Notes under the pieces: generated by a model
Told to the model about the DNA's origin: nothing
Databases searched by the model: none
What the model saw: the letters and a program-made list of their open reading frames with translations, nothing else
Part shown: positions 8,171-62,470 of the stretch, one piece after another
Layout: every line of letters starts with the position of its first letter
Numbering within the stretch: the first letter of the stretch is position 1
From: Escherichia phage EPFV3-03/2025
Direction: 5' to 3' (one strand)
Sequence record: PV435126.1
Length of the DNA: 64,000 bases
Position numbers and translations under genes: made by a program

Positions 8171-8779
8171 TCTGCTCTTCCCCATACCATAAACGGCCCT
8201 ACCTGACAAGTGGAATAATTGACGAGCCATCAATCCCGCACACTGTACAAATATACATGTAAAATAGCTATTGCATAACCTTTCATTGTGTGGTAGCGGT
8301 GCTATTTTTACCCGTTTTCTCTCCCAAAATTGCACGTAATGCAGCTATTGCACAAAATTTAACCTGATGCACATCTTCAGTATACTGTCAACAATTAAAA
8401 ATCTTTATAAGTCATACACTTACACAAACCAAAAAGCGTGTCCTACGTGAAAAATCGGGTGTAACTATAGCCGACAGATCTCAGAATCCACGTACAATCA
8501 CCATTCTATAGCCTGCAAAGTATTTATTCCAACCACAGAATAACGGAATAGTCAATACTTGTATAAAATAATTATTCGTGTAAACTGCATAACATAAATC
8601 TTCTCATGTGTCAACATTTTTCGTAAACAGTCCGAAATTGTCACGATAGGTTACTATAATCAGAGAAATCTTTAGTCGTCTAATGTTTACTGTACATAAC
8701 TATACTGACTGGAATCATTAGATGACTAAGAGAAAGATAAGAAATAATTAACAATGTAATTGTTTTATCTGCAACAATA

Positions 8780-9040
8780 AGGCAACTATGCAAACGAATG
8801 GCATGGCGCGACGGAGTCGCGACATAATATAAAAGCAGTAACCATCACCCCCGTGATAGTTTGTCTGCAATCTATTAATCAGATCATAGTTGCCTTGTAT
8901 TTAGTTAATCATGACATAACAAGCAGGGCAACTATAGATCTTCTAATAGTTGCCCTGCTTTTATATTATGTCATATATTATTAACTTGTCAATTGTCACC
9001 TTGCTAATTGTTTTCATGCAAACGAATGTCATGGCTTATC
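8780..9040. repeat. cluster of inverted and direct repeats (GCAACTAT/ATAGTTGC units; GCAAACGAATGNCATGGC x2)
   Basis: 16-bp inverted repeat AAGCAGGGCAACTATA...AATAGTTGCCCTGCTT at 8921-8960; further copies at about 8782 and 8886. Confidence 0.7.
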
Positions 9041-9869
9041 ATCTCTGTGTAAACTGTCAATGTGTAAACAGTCTACGCAGGAACAATCTATACGTGAACA
9101 GTGAAACATGAAATAATAACAGTCGTTATTGTGTCGAAAGTGTCGTATTGTGTGACATTGTGTCAGACAAGTTTTTCTCCTCTTTGTCAAGTGCTGCATG
9201 GAAAATTTACAATCTGGTATGGTAGCATTTTTGCGGCCCCGTTTACATGCATGAGTGTATGTATAATCCTTGTTGTGTGGGCGTTTAGACGTCTGGACGG
9301 TCAGAAGTCCGCAGGTTAATATCTAATCTATTGGTCGCTAACTATATCCACCACAAATAATAAGAAATACAATTGTTATATTCGTAAACAGTAACCCATG
9401 TTATCAATCCCTGTATGTATCGCCAGTGGTGCGCATAATGGGTATTATGTTAAATTGCCCGTAATGATAACGATTCTCACAATGATAAGTATTCTCATTC
9501 ATCCACACAAAATAGCTTGCAAATGTTGTGCCACTGTGTGAACGGCCTCGCCTATTAATTTGCCTCACTGCCCCGATATTTGAGAATTGTTATAAGAATG
9601 AGAAGTATTCCCATTCCGTCCGCCTGGCAGCACTCCAGTCGCTACCGGCTCCTGACAGGGTAGCACTCCTGTAGGACAAGCACAAAATCTGGGCATAACT
9701 GGACCTGTTCAGATATTTCTGGCTGACTCTTCAGGTCTGTGTGGGAAAAGCCAACCTCTCCGGCGGGGCAGGGGGGGTCTGCATGGCAGATTTCACCTGG
9801 AGCGAAACCCTTAAGGGTAAGATGGGGTGGTATTACAGGAAAAATTGCAGGTCAATTAAAAAATTTACG

Positions 9870-10230
9870 TGGTGTATGAAGCCCTCTTCAGGCAGGGCGT
9901 GTATTATGGGATGAAACCCTCTTCAGGTGATGATATTTGTGGGTGTGATATTTGCTGGAAAGCCAGATATGACGGGGCTCCCGGCGGGGATGGGGTAGTA
10001 CAGGCAGGGAAAATGTGGGGATGTGGTGTGGTAAATTGATCAGGCAGGTAGGATATGGAATATGTTACAAGTATGTTAAATATGGAGGTAGGATATTTGT
10101 AAGATTTGTGTGTAAAATCAAATACTTATGTGGTGTTGTGGTATTTTCTATAAATAATTCAAGTTTAATAGGTGATATTTGTCTCCATCTACTTTGTGTG
10201 GTAAACAGATTCTAATTGAATTGGTTTACA
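9870..10230. repeat. GT-rich short direct repeat region
   Basis: Repeated GAWRCCCTCTTCAGG (x2), TGATATTTG (x3-4), GGTAGGATAT (x2); strand-asymmetric G+T composition. Confidence 0.6.
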
Positions 10231-10691
10231 AGTGTATATAAAGTATACAAATTAAAGATATAAGAAACCCCCCTCCCCCCTTCGGCTACCATTCACCTTT
10301 TCCTCTGACTGGTACTTAAACACTTATTCAGACTCTTCAGGTTATCACCCATATATCATATGGCAGTGACTGGTGTCCTCCGGCCCCTCTTTCGTCACCC
10401 GTCCGCTTCGCCATGCTAATGCCATAGCTAACTGTTCGGTTGTTCACCCTGTTCACTCAGGTGTATCTCCATACCCCTTCAAACCGAAGAGAACAGAAAA
10501 CCCGAATTACTCGGTAAAAGAAAAGAGAAGAACTTAATTTTATCAGGATAGGCAAGAATGTCAAGGCATGACTGCTCACTAAACAAGCAAACAGTCATGT
10601 GTGGGAGGTAAGTGATTGTGGTGGTAGGAAATTTAGTTGAAAGATGTGTTATAGGTGCTTCCAGCACTTTAGCCTGGCAGCTAATTGTGTG

Positions 10692-10907
10692 TCAGTCCAG
10701 CGGTTCATCCTCTACTTCACTGAAATCAATGTTCATGGTCTCTTCCCAACCATCGATCTCAGCACAAGAGTGGAGTTCTTTAGGGTTTACTCCCAAAGCC
10801 TCAGCAACAGAGTCTATATTTAACACCTCTGGCAGGTATGATTCATCGAATTCAAGGTAAATCAGGCCACGAGTGTTGTCAGCTCCACCAAATATTTCTA
10901 TCTTCAT
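10692..10907 (-). CDS. hypothetical acidic protein (71 aa)
   Basis: ORF, MKIEIF start; last gene of - strand block. Confidence 0.5.
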   Translation of the reverse strand: MKIEIFGGADNTRGLIYLEFDESYLPEVLNIDSVAEALGVNPKELHSCAEIDGWEETMNIDFSEVEDEPLD

Positions 10908-11027
10908 AAAATCTCCTCTGGGAATGAGAGTGTGAACAGGATTATACGTTCCAATGCACTGGAATTTATATACGTTTGCCTCTTCAGGCCATGCTTTAGC
11001 ATGATAAACTTGTGTGGGCTCGGTGCT

Positions 11028-11363: not shown

Positions 11364-11575
11364 CAGAAACGCCGCGAGGGTTGGTTAAAATCCGAGCGTA
11401 TGGTGATTTGGGTCAAAACGGACGTGCGTTCTCGCTACGCTCGAAATAGAGAGTTGTTTGTAAGCAGCTCTTAAACGCTCTGTAATGATATTAACTACCT
11501 AAGGTATGGAATCGTGCACCAGATAAAGAAAAGGACGCCACAGAGCGTCCTAGGTGCCTTAAATTTGATATTTTG

Positions 11576-49431: not shown

Positions 49432-49782
49432 ATGAAAGAGGAGGATAAGCTGCCATACCTTAAAGTCCCATTTGGAATACTGTCTATGTCAAAAGTTTTG
49501 AATGATACAACTGGAGAGGTTGTTGTTCTTGACTTGTATGACAAGATCGTATACTGCTACCTGCACAACTGGTATAAGCTTGGAGGAAATTCACGCTTCA
49601 CACCCAGCACAAGGAAAATTGCAGCAGATGTTGGGATAAAGAAAACAAAAGCAGCAGCGTGCGTTAAAACTTTAGAATGTGCAGGCGTGGTTGAAATATC
49701 CACACAAGGGAGAGGTAAAAGATGCACATTTTCCAAAGTTTTGCCACCAGAAGAGGTTATTCGAATGTCAACAACTGGTTAG
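49432..49782 (+). CDS. putative winged-helix DNA-binding protein
   Basis: 116-aa ORF; wHTH-like segment STRKIAADVGIKKTKAAACVKTLECAGVVE; directly upstream of iterons. Confidence 0.45.
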   Translation: MKEEDKLPYLKVPFGILSMSKVLNDTTGEVVVLDLYDKIVYCYLHNWYKLGGNSRFTPSTRKIAADVGIKKTKAAACVKTLECAGVVEISTQGRGKRCTFSKVLPPEEVIRMSTTG

Positions 49783-49857
49783 ACCAGTAAAAACTTAAAT
49801 ATCTGTACTATAAGGATTCGTATGTTTTATGTCCATCCAAGAGCAGAGGGTAGTAAC

Positions 49858-49945
49858 TGTCCGTAATACGGACACTACTGCCCGTCACGCGGACACATCT
49901 GCCCGTAATACGGACACTAACTGTCCGCAATACGGACACATAAAG
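49858..49945. repeat. four tandem iterons of about 21-22 bp, each with palindrome CCGTAATACGG + ACAC
   Basis: TCCGTAATACGGACACTACTG / CCCGTCACGCGGACACATCTG / CCCGTAATACGGACACTAACTG / TCCGCAATACGGACACATAAAG. Confidence 0.8.
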
Positions 49946-50443
49946 AATATAACTAAAATAACTAAATAATAAAAAATAAAAGATCTAGTACTTATGGTAC
50001 TAAAGTACATATACTTAACTTATGTAGAATATACTAGATCCTAAGTACCATGTTTTAAATTTATTACTTACTATTGGTAGTGTCGGCCCTTCATTGGCAC
50101 TCGCCTACGAGGGGCGAGATGCCGGGCCTCCATAGTGCACACAATAACAGGAGTGCATACATGCAGGACTGTTAACATGTGTGGGAGCGAAGCGATAGCG
50201 CAGGCCAAAGGCCGAGCACTAATGTGGACCACCGACGAAAGCTTGCCAGCGCCGTAAGGAGTCGGTTGAGAGCCTCCCGCGAGAGTTTAGTTAAAGTTTA
50301 TGTGTGGAAACGGACAGGAAGGCCCCTAAATCGCCACACAGCTGCGTAAACTATACCAAGTAAGGCAATCGCACCAGTTTGATAGAAAAGCTCGTTACAA
50401 AGCGATACAGTGAGTTTTTCTATAACTTGAAGAGGAGGCAGTT

Positions 50444-51022
50444 ATGAGTTCACGCAAAGATGACCGCGAAAAGATTGCAAAACGTTATCAGAATGAAGAA
50501 CAGATGGAGAAAACTTTCAAGTGGAAGCCAGGTTTCCAGCGTAATCATTCTAACGCTCGTGATCGTAAGCATCCGGATAAGTGGCTAACACCGCCAAATG
50601 ATGGCATGCAGGTTGGTGATGAGAAGGAGCTATCGCCTGGAAAAGATGGCAACTACATTCGCACTAAGGACGCTGGTCCAAAGGATGACAGCTATCTTGT
50701 AGATAAGGTTCTTGATGGTATTGATGTAGATGTTGACACCACACGGAACTTTTTTCTTGGGTGGTATCGCACAGGTTTTTTCGACATCAAGGCCATTCGT
50801 CGTGTTTGTGATATTAAAAAGTCTGCATATGATGACGACTCGTTACATCGCACCCTGAGGCAATATTCAGAAAGATATGGTCATCCGGTTATCACTCTTG
50901 ACGATGTTGACGAAGTGATGTATCATGCAGAGGTTGTTGCAGGCAGATTTGGTGATGCATATCTTGATATCCTTTCTGCAAACGATGAGGTAATGTTGAA
51001 TAAGATTTACTACGAACGTTGA
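50444..51022 (+). CDS. hypothetical protein (192 aa)
   Basis: ORF with GAGGAGG RBS. Confidence 0.55.
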   Translation: MSSRKDDREKIAKRYQNEEQMEKTFKWKPGFQRNHSNARDRKHPDKWLTPPNDGMQVGDEKELSPGKDGNYIRTKDAGPKDDSYLVDKVLDGIDVDVDTTRNFFLGWYRTGFFDIKAIRRVCDIKKSAYDDDSLHRTLRQYSERYGHPVITLDDVDEVMYHAEVVAGRFGDAYLDILSANDEVMLNKIYYER

Positions 51023-52319: not shown

Positions 52320-52394
52320 GCCCTGTTAGCTTAGTGGATAAAGCAGCGGCCTTCTAAGCCGTTGACACTGGTTCGAGTCCAGTACGGGGTGCCA
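52320..52394 (+). tRNA. tRNA-Arg (anticodon TCT)
   Basis: Manual cloverleaf: 7-bp acceptor GCCCTGT/ACGGGGT, 4-bp D-stem, anticodon loop CTTCTAA, T-loop TTCGAGT, CCA encoded. Confidence 0.75.
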
Positions 52395-52398
52395 AATT

Positions 52399-52485
52399 GG
52401 GGAGTTATCCCGTAGAGGTAGCGGTGTAGACTGTAAATCTATTGTCATTGCGACTCGGGTGGTTCGACTCCACCACTCCCCACCA
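52399..52485 (+). tRNA. tRNA-Tyr (anticodon GTA), long variable arm
   Basis: Acceptor GGGGAGT/ACTCCCC, anticodon loop CTGTAAA, T-arm GGTGG-TTCGACT-CCACC, CCA encoded. Confidence 0.7.
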
Positions 52486-52599
52486 AATTTATATTTTTAA
52501 ATGCATAAATCATACAGATAATGACATTGATATTTATCGTCGTTTATACTAGTCACTAACTGCTCGAAAATCAGTGTCATTATCAGTGTAATTTATAAA

Positions 52600-52690
52600 G
52601 GAGGGTAGGGAGCAATGGTGCTCAAGCGGTCTTGAAAACCGTCCCGTTGAGGATGACTCGATGATGGTTCGATTCCATTACTCTCCGCCA
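52600..52690 (+). tRNA. tRNA-Ser (anticodon TGA), long variable arm
   Basis: Acceptor GGAGGGT/ACTCTCC, anticodon stem GCGGT/ACCGT with loop CTTGAAA, T-loop TTCGATT, CCA encoded. Confidence 0.7.
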
Positions 52691-52788
52691 CATTGTTGAC
52701 CTTGTAATTAAGCGAAAGCCGGAAGCAGAACCGGATTATCAAATGTTACAGTCGTCATCGCCGACTAGCCACATGGTCAACATATTGC

Positions 52789-52887
52789 GCTAGGTAAGCC
52801 CTTTGGCAAGGGCGAGGATTTTTAATCCTGAAAATAGACGAGGTAGTCGTTGAATACATAGGTGGTTCGATTCCATCACCTAGCACC
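52789..52887 (+). tRNA. atypical tRNA-like gene (possible anticodon TTT) with about 30-nt insertion before T-arm
   Basis: Perfect 7-bp acceptor GCTAGGT/ACCTAGC, D-arm GCCC-TTTGGCAA-GGGC, T-arm GGTGG-TTCGATT-CCATC, but 4-bp anticodon stem and over-long variable region; CCA not fully encoded. Confidence 0.45.
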
Positions 52888-52892
52888 TTTTT

Positions 52893-52968
52893 GCTGATGT
52901 AGCACAATTGGCAGTGCAATTGATTTGTAATCAATAGGTTGCAGGTTCGAGTCCTGCCATCAGCACCA
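52893..52968 (+). tRNA. tRNA-Thr (anticodon TGT)
   Basis: Acceptor GCTGATG/CATCAGC, D-stem GCAC/GTGC, anticodon stem ATTGA/TCAAT loop TTTGTAA, T-loop TTCGAGT, CCA. Confidence 0.8.
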
Positions 52969-52969
52969 T

Positions 52970-53044
52970 GGCCCTGTAGCTGGAAGGTTCAAGCAAGCGA
53001 CTCATAATCGCCAGACGGTGGTTCAATTCCACCCAGGGCCACCA
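52970..53044 (+). tRNA. tRNA-Met (anticodon CAT; Ile-lysidine type not excluded)
   Basis: Acceptor GGCCCTG/CAGGGCC, anticodon loop CTCATAA, T-arm GGTGG-TTCAATT-CCACC, CCA. Confidence 0.7.
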
Positions 53045-53055
53045 AATAATAAATA

Positions 53056-53132
53056 CTCCGCGTAGCTCAGCTTGGTAGAGCGCCTGATTTGGGATCAGGA
53101 GGTCGAGTGTTCGAATCACTCCGTGGAGACCA
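53056..53132 (+). tRNA. tRNA-Pro (anticodon TGG)
   Basis: C1-G72 acceptor CTCCGCG/CGTGGAG, D-arm GCTC-AGCTTGGTA-GAGC, anticodon stem CCTGA/TCAGG loop TTTGGGA, T-loop TTCGAAT, CCA. Confidence 0.8.
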
Positions 53133-61952: not shown

Positions 61953-62005
61953 AAATTGTTGCTTTTGATGTATCTTTGTGGTAAAATACATTAGTGAGGA
62001 ATATA

Positions 62006-62470
62006 ATGCTAAAGGTTAAATGTCAAACCAGGTTCAACCTAAAGCGTTTAGATCGCTTTTACAAAGACCTTGTGAAACTCGAAAGCAAAACAATAACCTA
62101 CGGCTTTTATGATGAACCTCACCCGTCAGGCTTAAATATGGCAACATTGGCAGCTATTCACAACTTCGGTTGGAACGGACTGCCTGTTCGCAATTTCATG
62201 GAGACGGCCTTTGCATTTCACAGCACGCAACTGCAGACCTTGACAGAAAAATTGTTGAGAGCTATGGCTAGAGGATCAAGTGCAGAGGCTGTTCTTAAGC
62301 AGATGGGAGACACAGGGGCCAAAGCTATCCAGTTTGTTATTGAGGCTGGGCAGTTTAGTAACCCTACTGTTAGTGAGCAGTGGGCACAAGAGAAGGGCTT
62401 CAACGAGGCTATGCGGCATTACGATGTGCTGCTGGAATCTGCAACCTTTAAAATTGGACAGCAAAAATAA
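62006..62470 (+). CDS. structural protein (putative head-tail adaptor/completion)
   Basis: ORF with GAGGAATATA RBS; late-module synteny. Confidence 0.4.
   Translation: MLKVKCQTRFNLKRLDRFYKDLVKLESKTITYGFYDEPHPSGLNMATLAAIHNFGWNGLPVRNFMETAFAFHSTQLQTLTEKLLRAMARGSSAEAVLKQMGDTGAKAIQFVIEAGQFSNPTVSEQWAQEKGFNEAMRHYDVLLESATFKIGQQK

What the first reader, a model, noticed from the sequence alone, without database searches (positions are those of the whole stretch)
50080..50443. ORF-free GC-rich structured stretch: candidate non-coding RNA or long leader
About 360 bp between the AT-rich tract and the ATG at 50444 has no ORF of 60 codons or more on either strand. It is visibly more GC-rich than its flanks and contains many short complementary segments, for example CTCGCC...GGCGAG and GGCCAAAGGCC. 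In a genome this compact a gap of that size is unusual.
Basis: seen in the sequence. Interest (0 to 1): 0.5.

Follow-up and report, generated by a model that had tools for sequence, protein, structure and literature searches.

The report
Structured non-coding element beside phage origin
The ORF-free GC-rich stretch is a real, conserved, hairpin-rich non-coding element next to an origin-like repeat array in an rV5-like coliphage, and small satellite-like E. coli plasmids carry the same element, so it is probably a single-stranded signal that both use.

Summary
Window 50080-50443 has no conserved ORF and shows no codon periodicity. GC is 0.53-0.56 against 0.22-0.31 upstream, and it folds better than shuffles (z -2.8). 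The window is an rV5-like Vequintavirus. The element lies just right of a 116-aa winged-helix "replication initiation" ORF, four 21-22-nt iterons and an AT-rich tract.

In a diverged relative, conservation starts sharply at 50082 and runs to the ATG, although the initiator-like ORF and iterons are replaced. No Rfam family matches.

Homologues occur only in Vequintavirus, in that relative, and in 13-15-kb E. coli plasmids. These plasmids encode a capsid protein, Dit, Neck1, a tape measure and an O-like Rep. There too the element lies between the iterons and the rep operon.

Covariation is strong. The stem of a three-way junction (50231-50266) is paired in 100% of 16 variants, with 5 of 6 pairs changed on both sides. 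An inner hairpin covaries, and an inner loop stays GNRA. The + strand is the folded strand.

Best reading (about 0.4): an origin-auxiliary single-strand element, a hairpin array on the lagging-strand template or its transcript. Main rival (about 0.3): a cis-acting leader RNA. RNA versus ssDNA is unresolved.

The parts
49432..49782 (+). 116-aa winged-helix ORF, initiator-like or regulator-like. Context for the element, not part of it.
   Evidence: PHROG 12838 'replication initiation protein', E 4e-76. Weaker hits to other initiator PHROGs. Pfam HTH_36 and DUF6945 below cut-off. Found only in this genus in the phage collection.
49854..49939 (.). Four iterons of 21-22 nt, each with the palindromic core TGTCCGTAATACGGACA.
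   Evidence: the repeat finder family D1, spacing 21/21/22. Other records annotate it as a period-21 repeat region.
49940..50075 (.). AT-rich tract (GC 0.22-0.31) with a GATC-flanked inverted repeat. Candidate DNA-unwinding element or promoter region.
   Evidence: Composition; inverted repeats I2 and I4; sequence.
50082..50131 (+). P1: 15-bp bipartite hairpin (50085-50089/50124-50128 and 50096-50105/50113-50123). This is where conservation begins.
   Evidence: 100% paired in 6 variants. Two pairs changed on both sides in plasmid L005: GGCA/UGCC to GUCA/UGAC, and CUCGCC/GGCGAG to CUCUCC/GGAGAG. 95% identical to L003, whereas 50063-50079 is 24% identical.
50137..50185 (+). P2: variable hairpin (CACACA/UGUGUG, AACAG/CUGUU, UGCA/UGCA) followed by the linker motif UGUGUGG.
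   Evidence: MFE with both RNA and DNA parameters. 74% identity to L003. Its 5' half is deleted (18 nt) in Murica, A6-1 and A135. The AACAG/CUGUU helix followed by UUUAC recurs in plasmid versions.
50186..50230 (+). P3 region: small GC hairpins (GCG-AUAG-CGC, GGCC-AAA-GGCC; contains GCGAAGC), then the linker AAUGUGGACC.
   Evidence: Predicted by folding only. Single substitutions and a 3-nt deletion in relatives break these hairpins, so support is weak. Plasmids have different hairpins at this position.
50231..50266 (+). P4: three-way junction. Stem ACCGAC/GUCGGU; GAAA; hairpin GCU[UGCC]AGC; hairpin CC[GUAA]GG.
   Evidence: Outer stem 100% paired in 16 distinct sequences, 5 of 6 pairs changed on both sides, 0 of 500 shuffles reach the score. 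The inner hairpin covaries to GGC[UGCU]GCC in L033 copy 2. The tetraloop stays GNRA (GUAA, GGAA, GGGA). A covariance model finds one copy per element (two in L033), always co-oriented with the downstream operon.
50267..50317 (+). Conserved single-stranded motif UGAGAGNCUCCCGCG, then a variable AU-rich linker containing UGUGUGG (50301-50307).
   Evidence: Alignments. At this point plasmids carry inserted hairpin modules, and L035 carries a 187-aa ORF.
50318..50432 (+). 3' domain conserved in sequence: AAGGCCCCUAAAU, UAAAC, GCAAUCGCA and CUCGUUACAA. It ends in a 12-bp A/U-rich hairpin (50382-50393/50412-50423) containing a U5 run.
   Evidence: 93% identity to L003 over 50376-50443. The motifs are shared with all plasmid versions. 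RNAalifold finds no common structure for this domain. The hairpin is inverted repeat I7. It is not called a terminator by the consensus scan.
50444..51022 (+). Downstream 192-aa ORF of unknown function. Its Shine-Dalgarno sequence GAGGAGG lies 20 nt after the element.
   Evidence: PHROG 12226, unknown function. A 50%-identical homologue in L029 has only a 60-nt upstream gap and no element.
11458..11570 (+). Probable second, partial copy of the 3' domain elsewhere in the phage, at a convergent intergenic spot.
   Evidence: nhmmer E 0.0044 against the element profile. Alignment with the phage and plasmid 3' domains. ORF layout.

Best explanation
The element is an origin-auxiliary, single-strand-folding module.

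Proposed mechanism:
1. The winged-helix protein binds the iterons (49854-49939) and the adjacent AT-rich tract (49940-50075) opens.
2. A 5'->3' replicative helicase moving rightward exposes the + strand of 50080-50430, which is the lagging-strand template.
3. That strand, and its identical-sense transcript, folds into an array of very stable short hairpins (P1, P2, the P4 three-way junction) separated by G/U-rich single-stranded linkers.
4. This structure is proposed to mark the site where the phage replisome (primase-helicase) starts the first leftward strand or is loaded, as single-strand initiation signals do next to plasmid and phage origins.
5. The 13-15-kb satellite-like plasmids have their own Rep and iterons. 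They carry the same module so that the helper's replication machinery can act on them.

Shown: non-coding; conserved; structure kept by covariation; the + strand is the folded strand; fixed position and orientation next to three different iteron sets; shared between phage and plasmids.

Inferred: that the iteron module is an origin in the phage; that the active form is ssDNA rather than RNA; that priming or loading is the activity; that the plasmids are satellites.
For: Position:
- The order wHTH ORF, then 4-5 iterons, then an AT-rich tract, then the element is kept in the window.
- It is also kept in L003, where the ORF and the iterons are different sequences.
- In the plasmids the element lies between the iterons and the operon that encodes an O-like Rep.

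Orientation: all covariance-model hits are co-oriented with the downstream operon. There is one per element (two in L033) and none elsewhere in the 64-kb window.

Folded strand:
- The + strand folds better in 12 of 14 elements, a summed difference of -127 kcal/mol.
- G.U pairs appear on the + strand at helix ends.

Structure:
- P4 is 100% paired with 5 of 6 covarying pairs.
- P1 is 100% paired with 2 compensatory pairs.
- DNA-parameter folding recovers P1, P2 and the P4 junction unaided.
- Plasmid version L030 has z -5.3.

Shared sequence: the only nucleotide similarity between plasmid and phage is this element. The only shared protein is a Neck1/tail-completion homologue at 49% identity.

Promoters:
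- No sigma-70 promoter is found directly upstream in the phage.
- The rV5 paper's predicted promoters map further downstream, at window 51218 and 51828.
- In the plasmids, strong promoters lie downstream of the element.

Modularity: the number of hairpin modules varies. L033 has a tandem duplication, and L035 has an ORF inserted between the P4 domain and the 3' domain. This suits redundant signals better than one precise RNA fold.

From my own knowledge, not tested here: many stems are perfect 4-7-bp helices with 3-nt loops, and the window contains GCGAAGC. Both are typical of stable DNA mini-hairpins.
Against: - The conserved GNRA tetraloop, the UUCG loops and the three-way junction are at least as typical of RNA.
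- In the phage the element lies inside a co-directional gene string, and conservation runs right up to the next gene's ribosome-binding site. It is therefore almost certainly transcribed and could act as RNA.
- T7-type primase sites [GT][GT]GTC are not enriched: 17 on + and 13 on -, against about 26 expected. Four elements have none on the + strand.
- The 3' domain is conserved as sequence without a common structure, and a partial copy lies at 11458-11570, where no iterons were noted (that region was not searched for repeats).
- The 116-aa wHTH protein is small and could be a transcription regulator whose 'iterons' are operators.
- No origin has been mapped in rV5-like phages. The rV5 paper tried only skew analysis.
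Confidence: 0.4

Rival explanations
1. A cis-acting structured leader or intercistronic RNA. The + strand transcript folds into P1-P4. Through its 3' domain and terminal hairpin with a U run, it controls read-through, processing, stability or translation of the downstream genes. The plasmids keep the same RNA so that their operon responds to the same host or helper factor.
For: - Co-directional genes lie on both sides, and no predicted promoter lies between the element and the 192-aa gene.
- Conservation extends to the Shine-Dalgarno sequence.
- GNRA and UUCG loops, a three-way junction, + strand G.U pairs and a + strand folding bias.
- Every version ends with a hairpin followed by GUUUU(U)AGA-like sequence.
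- A boxA-like CUCGUUACAA / CGCGUUAGAA motif is conserved. The resemblance to boxA is from memory and was not tested.
Against: - The consensus scan finds no intrinsic terminator in 49700-50600.
- In the plasmids, two strong TTGACA-17-TAAGAT-type promoters lie between the element and the first gene, so there it is not the leader.
- A 50%-identical homologue of the 192-aa gene has no such leader.
- This reading does not explain why the element always follows an iteron/AT-rich module.
- No Rfam leader, riboswitch or antitermination family matches, even at E<=10.
Confidence: 0.3
2. An origin-linked RNA. Transcription that starts in or reads through the AT-rich tract produces a structured transcript that forms an R-loop, activates the origin or supplies a primer, broadly as in T7 or T4 origins or ColE1.
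For: - The same positional evidence as for the best explanation.
- AT-rich tracts directly precede the element in the window, L003 and L033 copy 2.
- Plasmid versions begin with C-runs followed by G-runs (GGGGG-AAU-GGGG-A-GGG...), and G-runs recur in the linkers.
- Features of + strand RNA type.
Against: - The structured strand points away from the iterons and AT tract. A ColE1-type preprimer is transcribed towards its origin.
- No conserved promoter is found: in L003 the sequence just upstream is unrelated and has no -10 at that place.
- The phage version has few G-runs.
Confidence: 0.17
3. A double-stranded DNA protein-binding site that helper and satellite share, for example a packaging (pac) site recognised by the helper terminase, or a partition or regulatory site.
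For: - The plasmids show no portal or large-terminase hit among the proteins scanned.
- This element is their only nucleotide similarity to the phage.
- The 24-nt P4 interior and the 3'-domain motifs are conserved as sequence.
Against: - A duplex binding site does not explain compensatory changes that keep hairpin stems while their sequences change.
- The folding asymmetry between strands argues the same way.
- L010, L036 and L037 lack the 24-nt interior but keep the stem.
Confidence: 0.06
4. It encodes small proteins. Some GenBank records annotate 32-aa and 56-aa hypothetical proteins here.
For: The BASEL and EdH4 records annotate CDSs equivalent to window 50179-50349 and neighbouring positions. 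The 56-aa frame is open in most members of the genus.
Against: - Variable sites fall 14/22/18 on codon positions 1/2/3, so there is no third-position excess.
- The changes are mostly non-synonymous.
- L003 has an in-frame stop.
- Plasmid homologues interrupt the frame with inserted hairpins.
Confidence: 0.02

Closest known systems
Single-strand initiation (ssi) signals and primosome assembly sites next to origins: G4-type and phiX174-type signals, and the G-site about 400 bp from oriR of plasmid R1 (from my own knowledge)
   Same: Stable hairpins on one DNA strand, placed beside an initiator-dependent origin on the strand that becomes single-stranded after opening. The orientation is fixed. 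Structure is conserved more than sequence. Short GAA/GAAA-type loops.
   Different: - Known signals are about 60-150 nt, whereas this element is 350-570 nt and modular.
- It has a three-way junction with a GNRA loop and a sequence-conserved 3' domain.
- No priming activity has been shown.
- T7-type primase sites are not enriched.
- It is shared between a virulent phage and satellite-like plasmids.
Structured leader and processive-antitermination RNAs (lambda nut, HK022 put, rrn leader boxA, EAR; from my own knowledge)
   Same: A long structured untranslated RNA at the head of a gene string that includes a tRNA cluster further downstream. It has a conserved single-stranded motif resembling boxA and ends in a hairpin next to the first gene.
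   Different: - No Rfam match.
- No consensus terminator to overcome.
- In the plasmids the promoters lie after the element.
- It is tied to iterons.
ColE1 RNA II preprimer
   Same: A structured RNA of several hundred nucleotides whose fold matters for origin function. G-runs are present in the plasmid versions.
   Different: - RNA II is transcribed towards its origin and needs no Rep or iterons.
- Here the folded strand points away from the iterons, and a Rep/iteron system is present.
- No sequence or Rfam similarity.
Large 'ornate' phage-associated RNAs of unknown function (ROOL, GOLLD), which lie near tRNA genes
   Same: A large, highly structured non-coding element in a phage or mobile element, with a tRNA cluster 2 kb downstream. 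It contains palindromic single-stranded motifs (AAGCUU, UGCAAUUGCA).
   Different: No match to any Rfam model. It is much smaller, has a variable module number, and is confined to E. coli phages and plasmids.
Helper-derived cis sites carried by satellites (P4 cos and Ogr-responsive promoters, PICI cos; from my own knowledge)
   Same: A short non-coding helper sequence is the only nucleotide similarity between a small element with a few structural genes and a large phage.
   Different: Here the shared piece is a covarying hairpin structure beside the replication origin, not a cos/pac site or a promoter. A helper-satellite relationship has not been demonstrated.

Membership tests
Any Rfam 15 family | Covariance-model match at the gathering score, or at least a weak match at E<=10 | tested here: not met
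   A gathering-threshold scan of the whole window found only tRNAs at 52.3-53.1 kb. An E<=10 scan of 49750-50550 found only noise: rli43 at 20.6 bits against a gathering score of 100, two microRNA families and a snoRNA.
Bacterial RNase P RNA (a lead from memory: AUGCCGGGCCUCCAUAG resembles CR-I) | Match to RF00010/RF00011, and a conserved long-range P4 pairing between the CR-I and CR-V strands | tested here: not met
   No RNase P hit even at E<=10. The candidate 3' strand GGCCCC (50321-50326) varies without compensation: UGCCUC in L003, GGCACC in L013, GGCUCC in L001. Its supposed partner GGGCC instead pairs locally within P1.
tRNA / tmRNA | Cloverleaf or tRNA-like domain detected by ARAGORN | tested here: not met
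   ARAGORN finds 7 tRNAs at 52320-53132 and nothing in 50080-50443.
Protein-coding gene (annotated hypothetical proteins) | Frame kept open in relatives and substitutions concentrated at third codon positions | tested here: not met
   Stop codon in L003. Variable sites fall 14/22/18 on codon positions 1/2/3 for the 56-aa ORF. The other three ORFs also show no periodicity.
Single-strand initiation (ssi) signal | Stable, conserved hairpins on one strand adjacent to an origin | tested here: met
   P1 and P4 are 100% paired with compensatory changes. DNA-parameter folding recovers them. Iterons and an AT tract lie immediately upstream in three lineages. That the iteron module is an origin in the phage is inferred.
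Single-strand initiation (ssi) signal | The folded strand is the one exposed as lagging-strand template by a fork leaving the unwinding element | tested here: met
   The folded strand is + and the AT tract lies to its left. For a rightward fork the + strand is the lagging-strand template. This is geometric inference, not an experiment.
Single-strand initiation (ssi) signal | Directs primase-dependent priming on SSB-coated single-stranded DNA | not testable with these tools
   Needs an M13/f1 origin-defective tester assay or in vitro priming.
Single-strand initiation (ssi) signal, T7-gp4-type primase | Enrichment of [GT][GT]GTC recognition sites on the folded strand | tested here: not met
   17 sites on + and 13 on - in 6.6 kb of elements, against about 26 expected per strand. 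The specificity of the rV5-type primase is unknown.
ColE1-type RNA II preprimer | Transcribed towards the origin, with Rep-independent initiation | tested here: not met
   The structured strand runs away from the iterons and AT tract. Rep-like genes and iterons are present.
Terminator-based attenuator / leader | An intrinsic terminator (GC-rich stem plus U tract) between promoter and gene | tested here: not met
   0 terminator-like sites in 49700-50600. The terminal hairpin is A/U-rich with a 16-18-nt loop. In the plasmids the promoters lie downstream of the element.
Terminator-based attenuator / leader | Lies directly upstream of the regulated gene on the sense strand | tested here: inconclusive
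   Met in the phage, where 20 nt separate it from the Shine-Dalgarno sequence. Not met in the plasmids, nor for the distant homologue of the gene in L029.

The most novel reading that the evidence does not exclude
The element is the molecular handle of a previously undescribed helper-satellite pair. On this reading, the 13-15-kb E. coli plasmids that carry their own capsid, Dit, Neck1, tape-measure and Rep genes are satellites of virulent rV5-like phages. They would have copied the helper's origin-flanking structured module (ssDNA or RNA) so that a helper replication or regulatory factor acts on them after infection. That would make this a new class of structured cis element, one that defines which genomes a phage replisome or regulator serves.
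Probability: 0.3. Interest if true: 0.8.

Novelty: new variant of a known kind. Interest (0 to 1): 0.62.

Why it matters
No origin or cis-regulatory element has been defined for rV5-like phages, which are widely used in coliphage therapy cocktails. The rV5 genome paper tried only skew analysis.

This work gives a concrete candidate origin: a winged-helix ORF, iterons and an AT tract, with a flanking structured module that has testable base pairs.

It also brings to light a family of small E. coli plasmids with phage structural genes. They share with these phages only this element and a neck protein. That makes a helper-satellite relationship with a virulent myovirus directly testable.

If the active molecule is RNA, the element would be a new structured RNA family absent from Rfam.

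Tried and rejected
- Rfam at the gathering threshold and at E<=10: nothing relevant.
- RNase P RNA resemblance, recalled from memory: rejected. No model hit, and the P4-like pairing is not maintained.
- tRNA/tmRNA: none.
- Coding potential of four ORFs: rejected.
- RNAalifold on 14 phage sequences gave an unconvincing global fold because variation is low. RNAalifold on 13 diverged 3' domains gave 0 pairs. I therefore claim structure only for P1, P2 and P4.
- T7-type primase sites looked striking at the 5' edge (GTGTC, TGGTC and GGGTC in three lineages) but are not enriched overall.
- The second copy of the linker motif, CsrA-type GGA motifs, DnaA boxes and Chi were considered by eye. None fits well, and they were not pursued.
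- Wider searches for homologues:
  - Exact-pattern scans of genome contigs returned 0 hits.
  - Viral contigs returned only the one IMG/VR relative.
  - Metagenome contigs returned 6 true hits and 1 chance hit.
  - Mydovirus and Seunavirus loci around the homologous phosphoesterase have no copy.
- blastn of the ORF-poor stretch at 7-12 kb against the plasmids and against the element: no similarity.
- Literature searches for a Vequintavirus satellite, non-coding RNA, transcriptome or origin found nothing on this element.

Full report
**Observation.** The stretch is as described. No ORF longer than 56 aa lies between 49783 and 50443. GC is 0.53-0.56 over 50100-50349, 0.22-0.31 in the tract just upstream and about 0.40 downstream. 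The + strand folds to -124 kcal/mol, z -2.82, with 0 of 100 shuffles as stable. The - strand gives z -2.49.

**Identity of the window and surroundings.** The window is an rV5-like Vequintavirus: 118 phage records match 49780-50500 at 80-99% identity. The local gene order, is:
- RNA ligase (-)
- polynucleotide kinase (+)
- phosphoesterase (+)
- a 116-aa winged-helix ORF (49432-49782)
- four 21-22-nt iterons (49854-49939)
- an AT-rich tract (49940-50075)
- the GC-rich element
- a 192-aa ORF (ATG at 50444)
- small ORFs
- a tRNA cluster

The 116-aa ORF matches PHROG 'replication initiation protein' families.

**It is not coding.** Some records annotate 32-aa and 56-aa proteins here. Across 14 relatives, however, the 102 variable sites show no codon periodicity: 14/22/18 on positions 1/2/3 for the 56-aa frame. 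Amino-acid changes are frequent, and the diverged relative L003 has an in-frame stop.

**Conservation has a sharp edge.** L003 is an IMG/VR contig whose 192-aa protein is 82% identical. Its sequence left of 50082 is unalignable (24% identity over 50063-50079). Identity to the window by segment is:

| Segment | Identity to L003 |
|---|---|
| 50080-50135 | 95% |
| 50136-50185 | 74% |
| 50186-50285 | 91% |
| 50286-50375 | 69% |
| 50376-50443 | 93% |

L003 has a different wHTH ORF (143 aa, weak initiator-PHROG hits) and five different 20-nt iterons, followed by an A-rich tract and then the element.

**No known family.** Rfam gives nothing at the gathering threshold and only noise at E<=10. ARAGORN finds nothing in the element. 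A remembered resemblance to RNase P RNA fails: there is no model hit, and the putative P4 partner varies without compensation.

**Homologues outside the phages.** blastn against E. coli genomes found pieces of the element (83-85% identity) on small plasmids. Further copies came from PLSDB, from metagenomes, and from contigs found through a plasmid protein.

These 13-15-kb replicons encode a major capsid protein, a Dit-like protein, a Neck1/tail-completion protein, a tape-measure protein and an O-like Rep. The Neck1 protein is 49% identical to window 61994-62470. Apart from the element itself, it is the only similarity to the 64-kb window.

In every plasmid the element lies after 5-6 iterons and a short AT-rich stretch, and before the operon that contains rep. 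Strong sigma-70 promoters lie between the element and the first gene.

Related phage genera have no copy. A 50%-identical homologue of the 192-aa gene has no such upstream region.

**Structure.**

P1 (50085-50128):
- 100% paired in six variants.
- Plasmid L005 changes two pairs on both sides.

P4 (50231-50266), a three-way junction:
- Its stem reads ACCGAC/GUCGGU in the window, GCUGCC/GGCAGC in most plasmids, CCGUCC/GGACGG in L033 copy 2, GCCGGA/UCCGGC in L032, L035 and L033 copy 1, and CCGGAU/AUCCGG in L010, L036 and L037.
- A covariance model built from seven sequences finds one copy per element (two in L033). All are co-oriented with the downstream operon, and there is none elsewhere in the window.
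- On that model's alignment the stem is 100% paired in 16 distinct sequences, with 5 of 6 pairs changed on both sides. 0 of 500 shuffles reach the covariation score, and all slid registers collapse (a hand-trimmed alignment gives the same result).
- Inside P4, GCU[UGCC]AGC becomes GGC[UGCU]GCC, and the second loop stays GNRA (GUAA, GGAA, GGGA).

Other regions:
- P2 is predicted but variable, and three phages have lost half of it.
- The 3' domain is conserved as sequence motifs, and no common fold is detectable.

Plasmid versions insert one to several hairpin modules, many of them three abutting perfect hairpins with 3-4-nt loops, separated by the linker UGUGUGG(G). L030 folds with z -5.3.

**Which strand.** The + strand folds more stably in 12 of 14 elements. 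Helix-end G.U pairs lie on the + strand. The UUCG and GNRA loops read correctly only on the + strand.

**What it most likely does.** Two facts carry most weight.

First, the element always sits in one orientation next to an initiator/iteron/AT-rich module, even when that module is swapped (window, L003, plasmids).

Second, it is the one piece of DNA shared by a large virulent phage and small replicons that look like its satellites.

Several other points also favour a role tied to the origin, on the strand exposed as lagging-strand template when the AT tract opens. In this respect it resembles single-strand initiation signals:
- No promoter is found at its 5' edge.
- The promoters that the rV5 paper predicted map further downstream, at window 51218 and 51828.
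- The plasmids have promoters downstream of the element.
- The element tolerates module gain, duplication and an inserted ORF.
- It folds the same way with DNA parameters.

I put this reading at about 0.4.

It is not proven. The GNRA loop and the junction look like RNA features. The phage copy must be transcribed with its neighbours and abuts the next gene's ribosome-binding site. T7-type primase sites are not enriched.

A cis-acting leader RNA (about 0.3) and an origin-linked transcript (about 0.17) remain open. A duplex protein-binding site and small proteins are unlikely.

**Known or new.** I found no paper describing this element, an rV5 origin, or these plasmids as satellites. The rV5 genome paper reports only that skew analysis did not define an origin. 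The element is a new family whose closest analogues are origin-flanking single-strand signals and structured leaders.

Noticed in passing
window 49854-50075: Four 21-22-nt iterons with a palindromic core, followed by a 136-bp AT-rich tract with a GATC-flanked inverted repeat, directly after a 116-aa winged-helix 'replication initiation' ORF. This is a candidate replication origin for rV5-like phages; none has been mapped.
   Followed up: partly
L007 (NZ_CP020521.1, whole plasmid); also L006, L008-L012, L015, L030-L037: A family of 13-15-kb E. coli plasmids and contigs encodes a major capsid protein, a Dit-like protein, Neck1/tail completion, a tape measure and an O-like Rep with its own iterons. 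No portal or terminase hit was found. They look like extrachromosomal satellites of rV5-like phages. NZ_CP043822 (39.6 kb) holds three copies of the element and may be a trimer.
   Followed up: partly
window 61994-62470: This 158-aa Neck1/tail-completion ORF is 49% identical to a plasmid ORF (L007 5703-6161). It is the only protein-level similarity between the plasmid and the 64-kb window.
   Followed up: partly
window 11458-11570: A probable second, partial copy of the element's 3' domain (nhmmer E 0.004) lies between convergent ORFs and is followed by the GC-rich hairpin GGACGC-CACAGA-GCGUCC.
   Followed up: partly
window, whole; cluster at 8287-11011 (+): TGTGTGG occurs 31 times against 8.9 +/- 3.1 expected. 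Six + strand copies fall within 8287-11011, which overlaps an ORF-poor stretch at about 8.1-10.6 kb. By my coordinate estimate that stretch corresponds to the 2.6-kb region the rV5 paper reported as having no observable ORFs. It has no sequence similarity to the element or to the plasmids.
   Followed up: partly
window 52789-52887: ARAGORN calls a 99-nt tRNA of undetermined identity with a four-base anticodon (atcc). Rfam scores it only 35.5 bits, and another record annotates a 97-nt tRNA-Lys at this position. It could carry an intron or an unusual anticodon loop.
   Followed up: no
L033 1950-3015: Two tandem, diverged copies of the element are separated by about 250 bp of pure A/T sequence.
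   Followed up: partly
L035 1252-1815: A 187-aa ORF is inserted between the P4 domain and the 3' domain of the element.
   Followed up: no
L019, L020, L021 (phages Murica, A6-1, A135), equivalent to window 50140-50158: An 18-nt deletion removes the 5' half of the P2 hairpin, so P2 is dispensable in these phages.
   Followed up: yes
phage collection records MG0656xx: Eighteen 'Campylobacter phage' records match this region; the listed ones are 91-95% identical to these coliphages and, where opened, are marked UNVERIFIED. Mislabelling or contamination is likely.
   Followed up: no
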